Positions 6,346 through 12,282 of a stretch of DNA of 64,000 nt are shown here, piece by piece. Each line of letters opens with the position of its first letter. Position 1 is the first letter of the stretch. The notes under the pieces were generated by a model. It was given only the letters and a program-made list of their open reading frames with translations, was not told where the DNA came from and did not search any database. A program made the position numbers and the translations under genes. The stretch is from Dehalococcoidia bacterium (GTDB lineage Bacteria > Chloroflexota > Dehalococcoidia > Bin125), in contig OY760135.1 in assembly GCA_963663185.1 (NCBI GenBank), positions 664,081 through 728,080 of the forward strand. Reading direction: 5' to 3'.

Positions 6346-6876
6346 ATGCCGCCCAACGATCTCCTCCAGGGCCTCCCGCCGATCCTGCCTGACGGCCACA
6401 TCCATGCCCTGATTCTCGGTTCATTTCCGAGCGTGCAGTCGCTGGAGCAGCAGCAATACTACGCTCACCCGCAAAACTGGTTCTGGAGGGTGATGCGGCA
6501 TTGTGGTGTCGTGGAGGACGCAACCGCGCCCTATGAGGCGCGGATCGAGCAGGTCAGGCAGAGGCATATCGCCATCTGGGATCTTTATGCGCAGGTGCGG
6601 CGACAAGGCTCGGGCGACGATCAGATTCGCGACGCGGCGCCGAATCCGATCAGGGAGTTGTTGGATTCGAGTGGGCCGTTCCCGATTCTGCTCAACGGCC
6701 GGCGTCTCAGGGAGTTTCGTAAGGCGTATTCCAATCTGGAAGTCGAGCTGATTGCGTTACCAAGTACGAGTCCGAGGCCGCTGCACTGGAACACCGAGGC
6801 CTCGCGGTCGGCGGCGTTGGCGGAGTGGCGTGAGGCTTTGCCAGGAGGTACAGCGCTACCTATGATTGACCTGTGA
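6346..6876 (+). CDS. DNA-deoxyinosine (hypoxanthine) glycosylase, UDG family 6
   Basis: HALILGSFPSVQS..QYYAHPQNWFWRVM motif. Confidence 0.6.
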   Translation: MPPNDLLQGLPPILPDGHIHALILGSFPSVQSLEQQQYYAHPQNWFWRVMRHCGVVEDATAPYEARIEQVRQRHIAIWDLYAQVRRQGSGDDQIRDAAPNPIRELLDSSGPFPILLNGRRLREFRKAYSNLEVELIALPSTSPRPLHWNTEASRSAALAEWREALPGGTALPMIDL

Positions 6877-7151
6877 TTGTCACTATCCGACATCGGGGAA
6901 TCCGTCGAATGTATGAACGTGACGACTCCAGTTTCCTGCCACCGCAGCATCTCGACAAGATCGAGGATGTAATCGGTCGTCTCGACGTAGCAGCTGGGCC
7001 GTCGAATATGGACATCCCGGGCTATCGACTTCACGAGCTTCGAGGCGACCTTGCTGGACACTGGGCCGTCCGAGTTTCACGAAACTGGCGAATCACGTTC
7101 CGATTCGAAGGCGGTAATGTGTATGACGTCGATCTGGCCGACTACCATTGA
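6873..7151 (+). CDS. higB: type II toxin HigB (RelE/ParE superfamily, plasmid-killer type)
   Basis: 92 aa; ..GHWAVRVSRNWRITFRFEGGNVYDVDLADYH aligns with the HigB C-terminus. 4-bp overlap with the upstream gene. Confidence 0.7.
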   Translation: MIVTIRHRGIRRMYERDDSSFLPPQHLDKIEDVIGRLDVAAGPSNMDIPGYRLHELRGDLAGHWAVRVSRNWRITFRFEGGNVYDVDLADYH

Positions 7152-7172
7152 GGAGCGCACGAGGAGCGCACC

Positions 7173-7457
7173 ATGCCGATGAAGCATCCACCTCATCCGG
7201 GACGTTCACTGCTCCGCGACTGTATCAAGGAGCTGAAATTGACTATCGCCGAGACAGCCGCGCATCTTCAAATCGAAGAACGCGTGCTTGAAGACGTATG
7301 CCACTGCCGTGCCCCGATCACTGCCGATCTGGCAGTTCGGATTGATATGGCCTTCGGCGGAGACGCTGACACCTGGCTCCGGGCGCAGGGCGCATACGAT
7401 CTGGCCCAGGCGCGCAAGACAGCCTGCGACATCAAGCGAATCGAACGCGCCGCCTGA
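7173..7457 (+). CDS. higA: HigA antitoxin (XRE-family HTH)
   Basis: ..LKLTIAETAAHLQIEERVLEDVCHCRAPITADLAVRIDMAFGGDADTWLRAQGAYDLA.. is the HigA/VapI HTH. Confidence 0.7.
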   Translation: MPMKHPPHPGRSLLRDCIKELKLTIAETAAHLQIEERVLEDVCHCRAPITADLAVRIDMAFGGDADTWLRAQGAYDLAQARKTACDIKRIERAA

Positions 7458-7969: not shown

Positions 7970-8935
7970 CTAGCTTGCGCTGAGCTTCCCCACCAGCGAC
8001 GCCAACATTGACATCAGCGGACATGCGATGCCCAGCTCCGTTGCGCGCTTCACTGGCTGCCGGAAGATGGCGTCGACCTCCAATGGCCTGCCTTCGATGT
8101 AGTCGATGGTCGTGCTGGGACGATACGCTCCCATGCCGGCGGTCAACGTCAGGTAGAGGCGGCATAGCTGATCGCCGTCAATTCTGAGTGACGCTCCATG
8201 CGCGGCGAGGTCGGCGTTGCCGGCGGCGACAACCTCTCGCATGATTTCGTGAGCCGCGTGATGCAGCGCGGGGTCGTGGATGATCTGGTCCGTGGCGACT
8301 CCGCCGGCGATGACGCAGAGGCCGTTGAAGGGGATATTCCAGCCCAGCTTTTCCCAGCGCGCCTTGAGCAGGCTCGGCTCGGGACGGATCTCGACGACCG
8401 AGCCCTTGAACAGGTCAACGGCTCGCTGCAGTTCGTCCGCATCGTCGCCGTAGTGTCCTATGTTCAGCGCGCCGAACTCCTGGTGAATGACCTGTCCAGG
8501 CTCGCCTCGGACGACGCCGATGAATCCGAGCCCGCCGAAGAGCGACGTCGAGGCTGGTAGATGCGCTGCGATCGCTTCGTCAACGCTGAGTCCATTCATG
8601 ATCGCGAGGACTCGCGTGCGCTCCGAGAGCAGCGGGCGGACAAGCGACGGCAGGTCGGGAATGGCGGTTGCCTTGAGTCCGATCAGCAGCCAATCGAACT
8701 CGCCGTGGGTGGACAACGCTTCGGGCGATCGCTCTACGGTTGGCGCAGGAAACGTCAGGTCGCCGAGCGGACTGCTCAGATGTAGGCCGCCCGCCGCAAC
8801 TGCGTCGTAATCGCGACGCATCAGGAAGGAGACATCGTGGCCCGCCTCGGCGAGACGCATCCCGTAGTAGCTGCCAATCGCGCCCGCGCCGACAGCGGCG
8901 ATTCGCTCTTGCGTCATCGACTCCATTGACTCCAT
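7970..8935 (-). CDS. panE: 2-dehydropantoate 2-reductase (ketopantoate reductase)
   Basis: N-terminal Rossmann AAVGAGAIGSYYG; ApbA/PanE-like length and C-terminal domain. Confidence 0.6.
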   Translation of the reverse strand: MESMESMTQERIAAVGAGAIGSYYGMRLAEAGHDVSFLMRRDYDAVAAGGLHLSSPLGDLTFPAPTVERSPEALSTHGEFDWLLIGLKATAIPDLPSLVRPLLSERTRVLAIMNGLSVDEAIAAHLPASTSLFGGLGFIGVVRGEPGQVIHQEFGALNIGHYGDDADELQRAVDLFKGSVVEIRPEPSLLKARWEKLGWNIPFNGLCVIAGGVATDQIIHDPALHHAAHEIMREVVAAGNADLAAHGASLRIDGDQLCRLYLTLTAGMGAYRPSTTIDYIEGRPLEVDAIFRQPVKRATELGIACPLMSMLASLVGKLSAS

Positions 8936-8938
8936 TGA

Positions 8939-10129
8939 TCAGTCACCTGCCGCAGAAGATTCCGTTCTCTGCGCTTCCGTTCGTTCGATGTAGCGATCAA
9001 CATGGAAGAGATCGAGGTCATGCTCAGAGCGCCGATCGATGCTGAGATCAGACAAGGCCTCGCCAATCGCTGGTGAGAACTTGAAACCGTGTCCTGAGCA
9101 GGCGCTCGCCAGCGCGATATTGGGTCGCTTGGGGTGCAGATCGATGAGGAAATGAGCATCGGGCGTGTTGGTGTAGAGGCAGGTCTCGGCGCGCAGCATG
9201 CGACCGCCAACGTCCGGGAAGGTGCGATCGAGCCAACTGCGCATGTTGGCTTCGTCGGCGGCGTTGACGACACGGTCATAGCCGGAAGGATCGACCTCAT
9301 CAAGCGGCTGATGATGTCCGAGCTTGAATCCGCGACCGATGTTGGGGAAGCCGTACGCGAAGTCTTGCGGACCGCGTTCCCACATCCAGAATGGCAGCGC
9401 ACCGAGCTCGAACGCTTGCGGGTTCGCGCGCGGCTCGAACCAGAACATCACCTGTCGCGTGACGCGCAAGGGCAGGTTGAGCTTGCCGACCAGGCCCGGA
9501 TTCCAGGCGCCAGCGGTGATCACGAGACGGTCTGCTTCGTAGCGTCTATTGGCGGTCTGGATCGAGAACGGCGATTCCAGATCGTCCATGTCGAGCGGCA
9601 GCCAGCGTTCGACCGGCTCGTCGAAGTGGAGCTCGGCGCCGTGCCGCGCCGCCAGGTCGAGCTGTCCGTTGAGCGCGGTGTCGATGTCAATCATGCCGCC
9701 GCGCTGCTCGAGCACGCCGACGAGATCGTCGCTGGCGGCGATGCCTGGGTAGCGGCGTCTGAGGTCGGCGGCATCCATTTGCTCAACAGCGATATCGTGT
9801 TCGCGGGCGCTCGCCAACACGCCTTCAACGAGACCCGCGCCTTCGCTGCCGAGTGATAATGCGCCGGTCTGGGTGAAGAGCGGCTGGCCGATCTCGGCAG
9901 CGAGTTCGTCCCAGAGTTCGTAGGCGCGGCGCACGAAGGGCACGTACGACGGACCCTCGTAATAGGCCTCGCGGATGCCGCGACTGTCGCCGTGCGTGGA
10001 GCCGAACATGTGCGGCGGTCGGAAGCGATCGAATCCGATCACACGCTGCCCGCGCAGCGAGAGCCGCCAGGCGGTAGCGGATCCCATAGCGCCGAGTCCG
10101 ATTACGGCGACGTCATATCGTTCGCTCAT
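8939..10129 (-). CDS. FAD-dependent sarcosine / N-methyl-tryptophan oxidase-like oxidoreductase
   Basis: MSERYDVAVIGLGAMGSATAWRL..GQRV.GFDRF.PPH..GS.HG.SR is the MSOX/SolA family N-terminus. Confidence 0.65.
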   Translation of the reverse strand: MSERYDVAVIGLGAMGSATAWRLSLRGQRVIGFDRFRPPHMFGSTHGDSRGIREAYYEGPSYVPFVRRAYELWDELAAEIGQPLFTQTGALSLGSEGAGLVEGVLASAREHDIAVEQMDAADLRRRYPGIAASDDLVGVLEQRGGMIDIDTALNGQLDLAARHGAELHFDEPVERWLPLDMDDLESPFSIQTANRRYEADRLVITAGAWNPGLVGKLNLPLRVTRQVMFWFEPRANPQAFELGALPFWMWERGPQDFAYGFPNIGRGFKLGHHQPLDEVDPSGYDRVVNAADEANMRSWLDRTFPDVGGRMLRAETCLYTNTPDAHFLIDLHPKRPNIALASACSGHGFKFSPAIGEALSDLSIDRRSEHDLDLFHVDRYIERTEAQRTESSAAGD

Positions 10130-10225: not shown

Positions 10226-10627
10226 ATGATCAGACTCGCGACTGCCCTCTGGTTCATCTCAGTTGGAGTGGTCTTGGTCGCCTGCGCGGACGATGTGCCC
10301 TCATTTCAGGAGGAGTCGGCGTCGATCTCACAGCCACAGGCGGTCCAGGAGCGAGAGCAAGTCAACGGCTCGCTCTGCGCGTTGCTCAACCCGCTGATTA
10401 ATCGGCGGTCTATCACTGAGCCACGCGTCAACTACCGGGATGTGGTTGACGCCATCGAACAGGGCGCAACGATCAACGTTCGCTGCGCCGCCGGCTCGTC
10501 GCCGCTCCACTTCGCGGCAGCCGCTCACGGCCTGATGGTGGTTGAACTGCTGATCAGCCAGGGGGCCGACATCCCCGCCGTCAATGGCGCCGTGACCAAT
10601 GCCTCGGTCGATGTCGTACGCATCCTG
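10226..10627 (+). pseudogene. ankyrin-repeat lipoprotein gene, 5' fragment truncated by an IS insertion
   Basis: Lipobox-like signal (MIRLATALWFISVGVVLVAC) followed by ankyrin motifs (GSSPLHFAAAAHGLMVVELLISQGADIPAVNG). Confidence 0.5.
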
Positions 10628-10668
10628 CTAGGGCCTGTTCACTCTATTTCGTCATGAAGTGGATGCAG

Positions 10669-11251
10669 GCGAGGAGGACTTGGTTGAGGTAGATGTGGGC
10701 GAGTTTGTGATAGCGGTTGGCGATGCCGCGCAATCGTTTGATGCGTCCGAAGTAACGTTCGATCGTGTTGCGGGCGCGGTAGGCCGCACGGTTCAGCGGC
10801 CACGGTTGAGCGGCCAGGGCTTGCGGCGATTCGCCTTCGGCGGGGTGATCAACTCCGATCCGAGTTCGGCGGCCAACGCACGCATCTCATCGCCCTCGTA
10901 GGCGCGGTCGGCGAGCAGTTGCGGCTGACCGGATACGGAGCCGAGCCGCTCCAACCACCAGCGTCCCCAGGGCGCATCGCCCCAGTGACCCGGCGTCAGG
11001 GTCAGCATCAGCGGCAGGCGGTCTTCCAGCACGACGGCGTGCAGCTTGGTCGTCAAGCCCCCGCGCGAGCGACCGATCGCCTGGAGCCCCTGTTGCTGGG
11101 CGCTCCGGTCCCGTCCTGATGGACCTTCACAATCGTGCTGTCGAGCGAGACGCGCAACGGTCGCTCCGGACCAGCTTGTTCGAGCTGCGCATCCGGTTCG
11201 TCCCGTTGCAGTTCGGCGAAGAGGCGCTCCAGCACGCCTTTGTCGATCCAA
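10669..11251 (-). pseudogene. IS5/IS427-type transposase OrfB (DDE domain), disrupted by a 14-bp tandem duplication
   Basis: ..QAIGRSRGGLTTKLHAVV..ADRAYEGDEMRALAAELG..KPWPLNRGR* stops at 10793. In another frame the C-terminus continues ..QPWPLNRAAYRARNTIERYFGRIKRLRGIANRYHKLAHIYLNQVLLACIHFMTK*. Units cacggttcagcggc (10786-10799) and cacggttgagcggc (10800-10813) form the duplication that shifts the frame. Confidence 0.6.
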
Positions 11252-11481
11252 CGCCGTCCGCGCATGTAGACCGTGTGCCAGGGACCGAAGCGCTCAGGCA
11301 AGGCCCGCCAGCTACAGCCTTCCTTGGTCACGAACAGCCAAGCCTCCAGCACTTGTCGCGAGGGCAGCTTGCAGTTGCCGCGCGGCGTCGGCATGAGCGG
11401 CGCGATCCGCGCCCATTGTGCGTCGGTCAGTTGCATGATCCCATTGACCCGGCCGCCAGACCGTTCCTCCAACTCTGACAC
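11053..11481 (-). CDS. IS5/IS427-type transposase OrfA (DUF4096 N-terminal domain)
   Basis: ..LTDAQWARIAPLMP..GNCKLPSRQVLEAWLFVTKEGCSWRALPERFGPWHTVY.. is the typical IS5-family OrfA. Confidence 0.75.
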   Translation of the reverse strand: MSELEERSGGRVNGIMQLTDAQWARIAPLMPTPRGNCKLPSRQVLEAWLFVTKEGCSWRALPERFGPWHTVYMRGRRWIDKGVLERLFAELQRDEPDAQLEQAGPERPLRVSLDSTIVKVHQDGTGAPSNRGSRRSVARAGA

Positions 11482-11537
11482 AGGTCTCGATTAGAGTGAA
11501 CAGGCCCTAGAAGGCTGGAGCTGCATCCAACCCGCTC

Positions 11538-12038
11538 GGCGAAGTCGGTCTCACCCCACTCCTCCGCGGGGCGCGCGCGGGCGGAGCGTCTCTGATCCGT
11601 GTCCTGCTCGAACACGGCGCCGACCCCAGCGCCACTGGCCCTGACGGTCGCACTGCCTTGCACATTGCGGCGCGTCACAACCCGCTGTCGGCCGTCTCCG
11701 AGCTATTGCTCAACGCTGGCGCTGATCCTGCCGTGCGCGACCGGCAGGGCAGTACTCCCTGCCACGTTCCAGGCGACCACCTCTCCGATCCCGAAGTCCG
11801 GCAACGCATCTGTACGGGTGGCTCACGCGACCGGATACATCAATACTCAATTGTCAATCCGAGCGCGACATCTCCGACGCCACTTGCGACATCGAGTTGT
11901 GCTCCCAATAGAGGATATGCTCGACATGCTCGCGAATCGACCATTCGTCATTGGGCGCTTTGGCGTCGAGCAGTGCGTCATCCATATGCAGCAGCTGTCC
12001 GACCAGTTCGGCGCGCTGGAAGATCAGGTCGCGCGTGA
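11538..12038 (+). pseudogene. ankyrin-repeat gene fragment downstream of the IS (different frame from the upstream fragment)
   Basis: ..TPLLRGARAGGASLIRVLLEHGADPSATGPDGRTALHIAARHNPLSAVSELLLNAGADPAVRDRQGSTPCH.. are canonical ankyrin repeats. This frame is not continuous with the pre-IS fragment after removing the IS. Confidence 0.5.
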
Positions 12039-12282
12039 GATGCGCGATCGGCGACTCCTGCATCTGTCTGGCGGTGTAGCGGGCAGTCGAGACGGCGCCG
12101 GCGTGCATGCGATCATGCTCGGCGTTGTGGACGAGTAGACGTCGAACGCCGCCGTTCATGGCGCAGCCGTGTTCAGTCGGGAAGGACAGATCGTCGTCCG
12201 TCGAACCCGACAGTTGCTCGACGGTGTCGGTGAGCTGGCGCATCAACTTGAGCGCTAGCTCGGTGGATTCGCTTGTTGGCAT
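11854..12282 (-). CDS. DinB-family (DinB_2-like) four-helix-bundle protein
   Basis: 143 aa from ATG 12282 (MPTSESTELALKLMRQLTDTVEQL..); His-containing motifs (..EHVEHILYWEHNS..) fit the DinB/YfiT fold. Confidence 0.4.
   Translation of the reverse strand: MPTSESTELALKLMRQLTDTVEQLSGSTDDDLSFPTEHGCAMNGGVRRLLVHNAEHDRMHAGAVSTARYTARQMQESPIAHLTRDLIFQRAELVGQLLHMDDALLDAKAPNDEWSIREHVEHILYWEHNSMSQVASEMSRSD

What the first reader, a model, noticed from the sequence alone, without database searches (positions are those of the whole stretch)
10226..12038. IS427-group element with perfect 19-bp inverted repeats splitting an ankyrin-repeat lipoprotein gene; its transposase is killed by a 14-bp tandem duplication
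Terminal inverted repeats ctagggcctgttcactcta / tagagtgaacaggccctag are exact, and ankyrin-repeat coding sequence is visible on both flanks. Bacterial ankyrin proteins are often lineage-specific or host-interaction factors. Inside orfB the motif cacggttcagcggc|cacggttgagcggc is a 14-bp tandem duplication that shifts the DDE domain out of frame; the remaining C-terminus is readable in the -1 frame. This copy is therefore probably immobile unless complemented in trans. The two ankyrin fragments are not in the same frame after removing the IS, which implies an additional lesion.
Basis: seen in the sequence. Interest (0 to 1): 0.5.

Follow-up and report, generated by a model that had tools for sequence, protein, structure and literature searches.

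The report
Broken IS5-family element in decayed ankyrin gene
A small jumping gene of a well-known type (IS5 family, IS427-like), itself disabled by a 14-base duplication, sits inside an ankyrin-repeat lipoprotein gene of a Dehalococcoidia bacterium that carries several other lesions; this is ordinary genome decay.

Summary

- **The element.** An 877-bp insertion sequence lies at 10631-11507. It has 16-bp terminal inverted repeats and a TA target duplication in a CTAG target. The "19-bp perfect repeat" is 16 bp of element plus TA plus one base of the palindromic target.
- **The transposase.** It is on the minus strand as two overlapping frames: orfA (DUF4096) and orfB (DDE, -1 frame). The same arrangement is seen in at least ten related copies from Dehalococcoidia MAGs.
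- **The 14-bp duplication.** The tandem duplication at 10787-10814 is absent from all 24 full-length relatives. Removing one unit restores orfB to the family's normal stop. As it stands, orfB ends just before the Y-R-E-K motif that carries the catalytic glutamate.
- **The flanks.** Both score as ankyrin repeats, and the N-terminus has a conserved lipobox.
- **Other lesions.** Intact syntenic orthologues are 347-369 aa. An IS-free allele exists in sister samples. The IS-free allele is broken too, by different lesions.

No intact near-identical IS copy was found. This is a new member of a known kind, of low interest.

The parts
10226..10630 (+). 5' fragment of the ankyrin-repeat lipoprotein gene. 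It starts at ATG 10226 and has the signal peptide with lipobox LVAC. As it stands the ORF runs 9 codons into the IS and stops at 10655-10657.
   Evidence: ORF; Pfam Ank 28.7 bits; lipobox Cys column conserved in orthologues.
10579..10597 (+). Junction of a 339-bp (113-codon) in-frame internal deletion that removes 3-4 ankyrin repeats relative to intact orthologues. The break lies in a CGCCG microhomology at about 10588-10592.
   Evidence: the anchor-to-anchor distance is 358 nt in L054, L073 and L074 versus 19 nt in the window.
10629..10630 (.). Left copy of the TA target-site duplication, within target CTAG.
   Evidence: 23 of 25 copies are flanked TA/TA.
10631..11507 (-). The insertion sequence proper: 877 bp, or 863 bp without the duplication. 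IS5 family with IS427-group features; transposase on the minus strand.
10631..10646 (.). Terminal inverted repeat at the low-coordinate end (GGGCCTGTTCACTCTA), downstream of the transposase. It contains the natural orfB stop codon TAG (10644-10646, minus strand).
10644..10786 (-). Stranded C-terminal part of orfB (AAYRARNTIERYFGRIKRL...IHFMTK*). It includes the Y-R-E-K motif coded at 10737-10787 and is now out of frame with the rest of orfB.
10787..10814 (.). 14-bp tandem duplication (10787-10800 and 10801-10814; one C/G mismatch, synonymous Leu CTG/CTC). It shifts orfB and creates a premature TGA at 10793-10795.
   Evidence: absent in 24 of 24 relatives.
10793..11103 (-). orfB as it stands: the central part of the DDE domain including ADRAY (10895-10912). 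It is in the -1 frame relative to orfA and truncated at PWPLNRGR*.
   Evidence: The truncated fusion covers only positions 6-110 of the 200 in DDE_Tnp_1.
11083..11103 (-). orfA/orfB overlap where the -1 frameshift must occur. The window reads GCGCCCAGCAACAGGGGCTCC; most relatives have CCAAAAGGGG here.
11053..11436 (-). orfA (127 aa from the ATG): DUF4096 DNA-binding part plus the first catalytic region (SLDSTIVK, 11122-11145).
   Evidence: (DUF4096, 89 bits).
11492..11507 (.). Terminal inverted repeat at the high-coordinate end, upstream of the transposase. It is a perfect complement of 10631-10646.
11508..11509 (.). Right copy of the TA target-site duplication.
11511..11512 (+). One extra base. 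The window has CTAGAAGGCTGG; the IS-free allele has CTAG-GGGCTGG and orthologues CTGG-ASGCTGG. It puts the 3' ankyrin fragment out of frame with the 5' fragment.
   Evidence: the same junction appears in an independent Illumina contig, L070.
11510..11825 (+). 3' fragment of the ankyrin gene (reading frame from 11511). The ancestral stop TAG is replaced by TCA at 11823-11825.
   Evidence: (Ank 50.6 bits).
11826..12038 (+). Run-on of the ankyrin frame after the stop loss. It overlaps the 3' end of the convergent DinB_2-like gene on the minus strand.

Best explanation
**The element (shown).** An IS5-family insertion sequence with IS427-group features lies at 10631-11507. It inserted at the TA of a CTAG site in a Dehalococcoidia ankyrin-repeat lipoprotein gene and duplicated that TA.

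**How such elements work (inferred from the family).** They make their transposase by a -1 frameshift that joins orfA to orfB. orfA carries the DNA-binding DUF4096 domain and the first Asp region. orfB carries the second Asp and the Y-R-E-K glutamate.

**Why this copy is disabled (shown and inferred).** A 14-bp tandem duplication sits immediately upstream of the Y-R-E-K codons. It shifts the frame and stops orfB at PWPLNRGR*. Any fusion protein therefore lacks the C-terminal 45% of the DDE domain, including the catalytic Glu. I infer that the copy cannot move itself. Both 16-bp ends are perfect and match those of related copies that appear recently active. A closely related transposase supplied in trans could therefore still move it (inferred).

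**The host gene (shown).** It is a pseudogene with at least three other lesions: a 339-bp internal deletion, a +1 base next to the IS, and a lost stop codon. IS-free alleles in sister samples share the stop loss. They carry their own different deletion junction and frameshifts.

**Overall reading (inferred).** The gene is decaying in this lineage whether or not the IS is present. The IS is one hit among several. The order of events in the window strain is not resolved.
For: - **IS boundaries, IR and TSD:**. 23 of 25 copies are flanked TA/TA. The left flank is CTA in 20 copies and the right flank TAG in 18.
- **Family:** NF033580 transpos_IS5_3, 233 bits against a cut-off of 110, covering 4-257 of 258. 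DUF4096 plus DDE_Tnp_1.
- **Two frames in 0/-1:** conserved in at least 10 intact relatives.
- **Published group features:** 832-865 bp, 2-bp DR, two overlapping ORFs, and a complete DDE only in the fusion (PMC3281130). IS711 duplicates TA in YTAR and uses a -1 frameshift (PMC2266754).
- **The duplication:**. It is absent from all 24 full-length relatives. Removing one unit reads through to ...IHFMTK*. The repaired fusion matches DDE_Tnp_1 positions 6-199 of 200, the actual one only 6-110. The Y-R-E-K codons at 10737-10787 abut the duplication.
- **Ankyrin gene:** Pfam. Orthologues are 347-369 aa with a conserved lipobox. Synteny ApbA-DAO | Ank | DinB_2-hydrolase-luciferase in L053, L054 and L073.
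- **Empty site:** found in L053 and L071.
- **Other lesions:** (339 nt against 338 nt deleted, with different junctions; TAG to TCA).
- **Independent support for both junctions:** Illumina contigs L001 and L070 are 100% identical to the window over 10,653 and 4,892 nt. They stop 26-27 nt inside the IS.
Against: - No experiment shows that the frameshift happens or that the truncated protein is inactive.
- The interior of the IS, including the duplication, is supported only by the window sequence. The short-read contigs end inside the IS termini.
- The number of IS copies in the window's own genome is unknown. Only one lies in the 64-kb window. No near-identical intact copy was found anywhere; the best is 91% nt and 82-89% aa. 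Trans-mobilisation is therefore only a possibility.
- The A-run seen at the frameshift site in most relatives (CCAAAAGGGG) is interrupted here (GCAACAGGGG). Relatives with intact ORFs share a similar variant, so its meaning is unclear.
- Without the IS and the extra base the window's ankyrin ORF would be open. It may have been working when the IS arrived.
Confidence: 0.85

Rival explanations
1. The ankyrin lipoprotein gene was functional in the window strain until the IS landed. The IS was the inactivating event, and the +1 base arose afterwards in a dead gene.
For: Without the IS and the extra base, the window ORF reads from the ATG at 10226 through all remaining repeats. Its signal peptide and lipobox are intact, unlike L053. 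Its internal deletion is in frame, at 339 nt.
Against: The 339-bp deletion leaves a hybrid repeat 8 residues short and lacking the TPLH start. The stop codon was already lost in the common ancestor with L053. IS-free sister alleles have independently acquired frameshifts, which argues for relaxed selection on the gene whatever the IS did.
Confidence: 0.3
2. The 14-bp duplication is an assembly or sequencing artefact, and the transposase of this copy is intact.
For: The IS interior is not covered by the independent Illumina contigs, which stop 26-27 nt inside the ends. The only database record of the truncated orfB (P0241) comes from one 3.28-Mb contig, which is probably the window's own source.
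Against: A 14-bp tandem copy with an internal substitution is not a typical homopolymer or consensus error. Elsewhere the window is 100% identical to the short-read contigs over 15.5 kb, with no indels.
Confidence: 0.05
3. The element belongs to another IS5 subgroup (for example IS1031-like), or to an unnamed subgroup, rather than the IS427 group.
For: ISfinder could not be queried. The closest annotated plasmid-borne transposases are below 50% identical and are named only 'IS5 family'.
Against: A 2-bp TA duplication, a length of about 860 bp, and two overlapping ORFs in 0/-1 frames are the IS427-group features. From memory of ISfinder's scheme, the IS1031 group is described with one ORF and 3-bp repeats.
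Confidence: 0.1

Closest known systems
IS711 / IS6501 of Brucella (filed in the IS5 family, IS427 group, from memory of ISfinder)
   Same: It is about 842 bp with short terminal IRs and two overlapping ORFs thought to be joined by a -1 frameshift. It duplicates the TA of a YTAR target (PMC2266754). The element here is 863 bp without the duplication, has 16-bp IRs and the 0/-1 ORF arrangement, and duplicates TA in (C/T)TA(G/A).
   Different: No direct sequence comparison was made. The host phylum differs (Chloroflexota, Dehalococcoidia). This copy carries a disabling 14-bp duplication.
IS427-group elements of Paracoccus (IS1248, ISPpa2, ISPam4, ISPaes1 and others)
   Same: They are 832-865 bp with 13-21-bp IRs and 2-bp direct repeats. 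They have two overlapping ORFs, and only the fusion carries the complete DDE motif (PMC3281130).
   Different: The best tblastn match to a Paracoccus plasmid is about 42% identity (H14). The frameshift motif is not the same sequence as far as could be checked.
Related copies of the same IS lineage in Dehalococcoidia MAGs (e.g. L022 in OZ253456.1, L020 in OZ242281.1, five identical copies in OZ219805.1)
   Same: They share the same 16-bp ends, the TA duplication, the ORF arrangement, and 80-91% nucleotide identity.
   Different: None carries the 14-bp duplication. Most have open orfA and orfB. Some carry a different 24-bp palindromic insert in orfB.
Intact ankyrin-repeat lipoprotein orthologues (P0002-P0010, e.g. 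P0003 in OZ242281.1)
   Same: They have the same neighbours (DAO upstream, DinB_2 downstream), the same lipobox N-terminus and the same conserved C-terminal LSDPEVRQRIC.
   Different: They are 347-369 aa, with about 113 more residues of ankyrin repeats and a stop right after RIC-x-D-G. They have no IS and no frameshift.

Membership tests
IS5 family, IS427 group | DDE transposase of the IS5 family | tested here: met
   NCBIfam NF033580 transpos_IS5_3, 233 bits (cut-off 110), covering 4-257 of 258 for the repaired fusion. Pfam DUF4096 plus DDE_Tnp_1.
IS5 family, IS427 group | Element length of about 800-1000 bp | tested here: met
   877 bp, or 863 bp without the duplication. Relatives are 857-889 bp. 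Published members are 832-865 bp.
IS5 family, IS427 group | Short terminal inverted repeats | tested here: met
   16 of 16 bp perfect and conserved across copies.
IS5 family, IS427 group | Target duplication of 2 bp (2-4), typically TA in YTAR | tested here: met
   TA/TA in 23 of 25 copies. The flanks are C/T on the left and G/A/T on the right. Compare IS711 and the Paracoccus elements.
IS5 family, IS427 group | Two overlapping ORFs, with the transposase made by a programmed -1 frameshift | tested here: inconclusive
   The 0/-1 ORF arrangement is conserved in at least 10 relatives. Frameshifting itself cannot be shown in silico, and the A-run is interrupted in this copy.
IS5 family, IS427 group | Sequence relationship to named IS427-group members in ISfinder | not testable with these tools
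   ISfinder is not available. The plasmid tblastn best hit is below 50% identity, annotated 'IS5 family transposase'.
Autonomous (functional) IS copy | Uninterrupted coding capacity for all three catalytic regions (D, D, E) | tested here: not met
   A premature TGA at 10793-10795 precedes the Y-R-E-K codons. The DDE_Tnp_1 match is cut to positions 6-110 of 200.
Ankyrin-repeat protein | Significant matches to ankyrin repeat profiles | tested here: met
   Both fragments exceed Pfam's gathering score for Ank (28.7 and 50.6 bits against 21.1). The joined protein scores 74.3 bits.
Bacterial lipoprotein | Signal peptide ending in a lipobox [LVI][ASTVI][GAS]C | tested here: met
   MIRLATALWFISVGVVLVAC|ADD. 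The Cys column and lipobox-like context are conserved in the seven intact orthologues aligned. This is a pattern match only: no SignalP run and no experiment.

The most novel reading that the evidence does not exclude
The ankyrin lipoprotein gene is being lost repeatedly and independently in very closely related Dehalococcoidia strains. The evidence is different deletion junctions 12-13 nt apart, different frameshifts, and an IS hit in only one strain. That pattern could reflect selection for losing a surface protein (for example a phage receptor or another exposed target) rather than neutral decay.
Probability: 0.15. Interest if true: 0.4.

Novelty: new member of a known kind. Interest (0 to 1): 0.15.

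Why it matters
It matters little beyond annotation. The region should be annotated as one ankyrin lipoprotein pseudogene interrupted by a defective IS5-family element, not as several small ORFs. The IS lineage is widespread in Dehalococcoidia MAGs and looks recently active in some of them: one MAG holds five identical copies at different sites. It could therefore serve as a strain marker. The contrast between IS-bearing and IS-free alleles in sister samples gives a small, clean example of parallel pseudogene decay in an uncultured lineage.

Tried and rejected
- **Search for other copies of this isoform.** A metagenome-wide scan with a 20-nt pattern spanning the duplication site gave 14 loci, all chance matches.
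- **Exact-sequence look-ups.** The window's orfA with four start choices, and the repaired orfB with three start choices, were not on record. Only the truncated 87-aa orfB is known, on one 3.28-Mb contig, and its contig could not be fetched.
- **P0144.** This 55%-identical orfB is listed on a contig of the same length. The look-up returned a different 2.69-Mb contig and said nothing about the window's genome.
- **Models that rejoin the ankyrin fragments in frame.** I considered no target duplication, or a 3-bp duplication. I rejected both because 23 of 25 copies show TA/TA with variable outer bases. Any duplication model gives the same pre-insertion sequence.
- **Long-read homopolymer error as the source of the extra base.** Rejected: an independent Illumina contig is identical across that junction.
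- **Literature search** for 'IS427 group' with CTAG or TA dinucleotide returned nothing relevant.
- **The window itself** was searched for further copies by IR pattern and by tblastn. There are none.

Full report
**What is in the sequence**

The motif CTAGGGCCTGTTCACTCTA occurs exactly twice in the window, at 10628-10646 on the plus strand and 11492-11510 on the minus strand. None is expected by chance (pair I1).

Tandem Repeats Finder and the repeat scan both report a 14-bp unit repeated head to tail at 10787-10800 and 10801-10814. The two units are CACGGTTCAGCGGC and CACGGTTGAGCGGC, 13 of 14 identical.

Between the inverted repeats the minus strand carries two overlapping frames:
- A 127-aa ORF (11436 down to 11053) with a DUF4096 domain (89 bits).
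- In the -1 frame, a DDE_Tnp_1 / DDE_Tnp_1_2 ORF.

The window holds only this one copy.

**True limits of the element**

A scan of one genome per species for the 16-nt core of the repeat returned 51 loci. Most are in long-read Dehalococcoidia MAGs. Twenty-four full-length copies align with the window element at 80-91% identity.

In 23 of 25 copies, counting the window, the element GGGCC...GGCCC is flanked by TA on both sides. The next base outward varies: C or T on the left, and G, A or T on the right.

The element is therefore 10631-11507 (877 bp) with 16-bp perfect inverted repeats. It duplicated the TA of a CTAG target.

One MAG (OZ219805.1) has five copies identical over aligned positions, each at a site with different flanks. 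The lineage thus appears to have been active recently. Its normal length is 862-863 bp.

**Family**

Joining orfA and orfB at the overlap and removing one 14-bp unit gives a 258-aa protein. It matches NCBIfam NF033580 (IS5 family transposase) end to end at 233 bits, against a cut-off of 110.

The 0/-1 two-ORF arrangement recurs in at least ten relatives with open frames. The following features are those published for the IS427 group of the IS5 family:
- A length of about 860 bp, short IRs and a 2-bp TA duplication in YTAR.
- Two overlapping ORFs, of which only the fusion holds a full DDE domain.

The sources are the Paracoccus elements (832-865 bp, DR 2 bp; PMC3281130) and IS711 (842 bp, -1 frameshift, TA of YTAR; PMC2266754).

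ISfinder could not be queried. The nearest annotated plasmid-borne transposases are below 50% identical. This is an unnamed member of a known group.

**The 14-bp duplication**

None of the 24 relatives has the extra 14 bp; all show a clean 14-column gap. Deleting either unit restores ...PWPLNRAAYRARNTIERYFGRIKRL...IHFMTK*, which is the C-terminus of the intact relatives.

With the duplication, orfB ends at PWPLNRGR* (TGA at 10793-10795). The codons for the Y-x2-R-x3-E-x6-K motif (10737-10787) start directly after the duplication and are left in another frame.

The Pfam DDE_Tnp_1 match shrinks from profile positions 6-199 to 6-110 of 200. The first Asp region (SLDSTIVK, 11122-11145) lies in orfA and the second (ADRAY, 10895-10912) in orfB. 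Assigning these as the catalytic residues rests on general knowledge of IS4/IS5 transposases. It was not tested here.

The two units differ at one synonymous position (Leu CTC/CTG). The relatives are also polymorphic at this position (C, G or A), so the mismatch does not date the duplication.

Both 16-bp ends are intact. The copy is best described as non-autonomous, and it might be mobilised by a close relative's transposase.

I found no such relative:
- The best nucleotide identity is 91%.
- The best orfB protein hits are 82-89% identical.
- The repaired orfB does not exist as an exact sequence among about 15 billion proteins.
- The truncated 87-aa form exists once, on a 3,278,079-bp contig that is probably the window's source.

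**The host gene**

Both flanks pass Pfam's ankyrin thresholds. The N-terminus MIRLATALWFISVGVVLVAC|ADD has a lipobox. Its cysteine column is conserved in the orthologues.

A protein search found intact orthologues of 347-369 aa. Three were fetched with DNA: L054 in MAG OZ242281.1, L073 and L074. They lie between the same neighbours: a DAO-family oxidoreductase upstream, and a convergent DinB_2-like gene, an alpha/beta hydrolase and a luciferase-like monooxygenase downstream.

The closest hit, P0001, lies on Logan contig ERR3887496_1643 (L053). L053 is 97.5-99.3% identical to the window across the locus. It has no IS and reads CTGCTAGGGGCTGG at the site, so it is the empty site. A third sample, ERR3887490 (L071), has the same IS-free allele.

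Two Illumina contigs from sample ERR3887492 (L001 and L070) are 100% identical to the window over 10,653 and 4,892 nt. They end 26-27 nt inside the two IS termini. Both junctions are therefore independently supported. The IS ends are also repeated somewhere in that sample.

**Lesions in the window's ankyrin gene, relative to the three intact orthologues**

- **(a) Internal deletion.** A 339-bp in-frame deletion has its junction at about 10588-10592. It leaves a hybrid repeat 8 residues short.
- **(b) The IS.**
- **(c) One extra base at 11511-11512.** The window reads CTAGAAGGCTGG. L053 reads CTAG-GGGCTGG, and the orthologues read CTGG-ACGCTGG or CTGG-AGGCTGG. This is why the fragments are out of frame after the IS is removed.
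- **(d) Stop loss.** TAG became TCA at 11823-11825. The frame runs on to 12038 and overlaps the convergent gene.

**Lesions in the IS-free allele**

L053 shares (d) but differs elsewhere:
- It has lost one base in the lipobox region.
- Its internal deletion is 338 bp and out of frame, with a junction that differs from the window's. The window keeps GTCAATGG from the upstream side; L053 keeps GCTGCACGA from the downstream side.
- It has a further 4-bp deletion that happens to restore the frame.

Two histories fit the deletion junctions. One is two independent large deletions. The other starts from a shared in-register 315-bp loss of three repeats (GETPL|HDAV). Separate 24-bp and 23-bp slippage deletions between CGCCG-type short repeats would then follow in the window and in L053. 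Either way, the two lineages damaged the same spot independently.

**Interpretation**

It should be widened: the gene is decaying in this lineage with or without the IS, so the IS is one of several hits. It is not shown to be the cause of inactivation.

In the window strain the order of deletion, extra base and IS insertion cannot be determined. Without the IS and the extra base, the ORF would be open.

**What remains open**

- Whether the duplication is confirmed by raw reads.
- How many copies the source genome holds, and whether any is intact.
- Whether the interrupted A-run at the frameshift site matters. The window has GCAACAGGGG where most relatives have CCAAAAGGGG; four relatives have GGAACAGGGG or GCAACAGGGG.

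**Verdict**

This is a real, correctly described but ordinary feature: a new, defective member of a known IS group inside a multiply damaged pseudogene.

Noticed in passing
L030, L023, L032, L050, L003 and L002 (related IS copies), at the position aligned to window ~11060: Six related IS copies carry an extra 24-bp palindromic insert in orfB, just before the GGLTTKLH codons. In five it reads CCTGTCCCCGGCTTGACCGGGGAG (stem CCCCGG/CCGGGG); L002 has a three-base variant. It lengthens the element to 885-889 bp and changes the orfA/orfB overlap.
   Followed up: no
L048, L045, L017, L013 and L019 (all in MAG OZ219805.1): Five copies of the IS are 100% identical over aligned positions at five sites with different flanks. 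One of them (L019) has a 1-nt deletion that breaks orfB. This suggests recent transposition bursts in that genome.
   Followed up: partly
L005 (CAXXUV010000003.1) and L026 (CAXXUV010000008.1): Two IS copies in one MAG share the same 12 nt of left flank (TTCAGAGCATTC) but have different right flanks. This would fit IS-mediated rearrangement or a duplicated segment.
   Followed up: no
L051:4572-4631: The right flank of this IS copy runs directly into another IS-end-like sequence (TAGGGCATGTTCACT). It looks like two elements abutting or nested.
   Followed up: no
window ~6809-7304: The megablast alignment between the window and the sister-strain contig L053 breaks here, although both sides align at 97-99%. 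In the window strain this stretch holds a HigB-like toxin gene and a 94-aa partner ORF (annotation of L001). No HigB-like gene is called in L053. This may be a variable toxin-antitoxin cassette.
   Followed up: no
window 10644-10646 (minus strand): The natural stop codon (TAG) of the transposase lies inside the terminal inverted repeat. The coding region therefore runs into the IS end.
   Followed up: partly
Alignment A1 (ankyrin lipoprotein orthologues P0002-P0010): Besides the lipobox cysteine, four cysteines are invariant across the family (positions 51, 87, 219 and 236 of the joined window protein). So are the N-terminal SLCxLL and C-terminal EVRxRIC motifs. This suggests disulfide-stabilised extracytoplasmic ankyrin proteins of unknown function, conserved in Dehalococcoidia.
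   Followed up: no
window 11826-12038 (+) versus 11854-12282 (-): After the stop loss, the ankyrin frame overlaps the 3' end of the convergent DinB_2-like gene by about 185 nt. The same overlap is present in the IS-free sister allele (L053 genes 8001-8861 and 8677-9105).
   Followed up: partly
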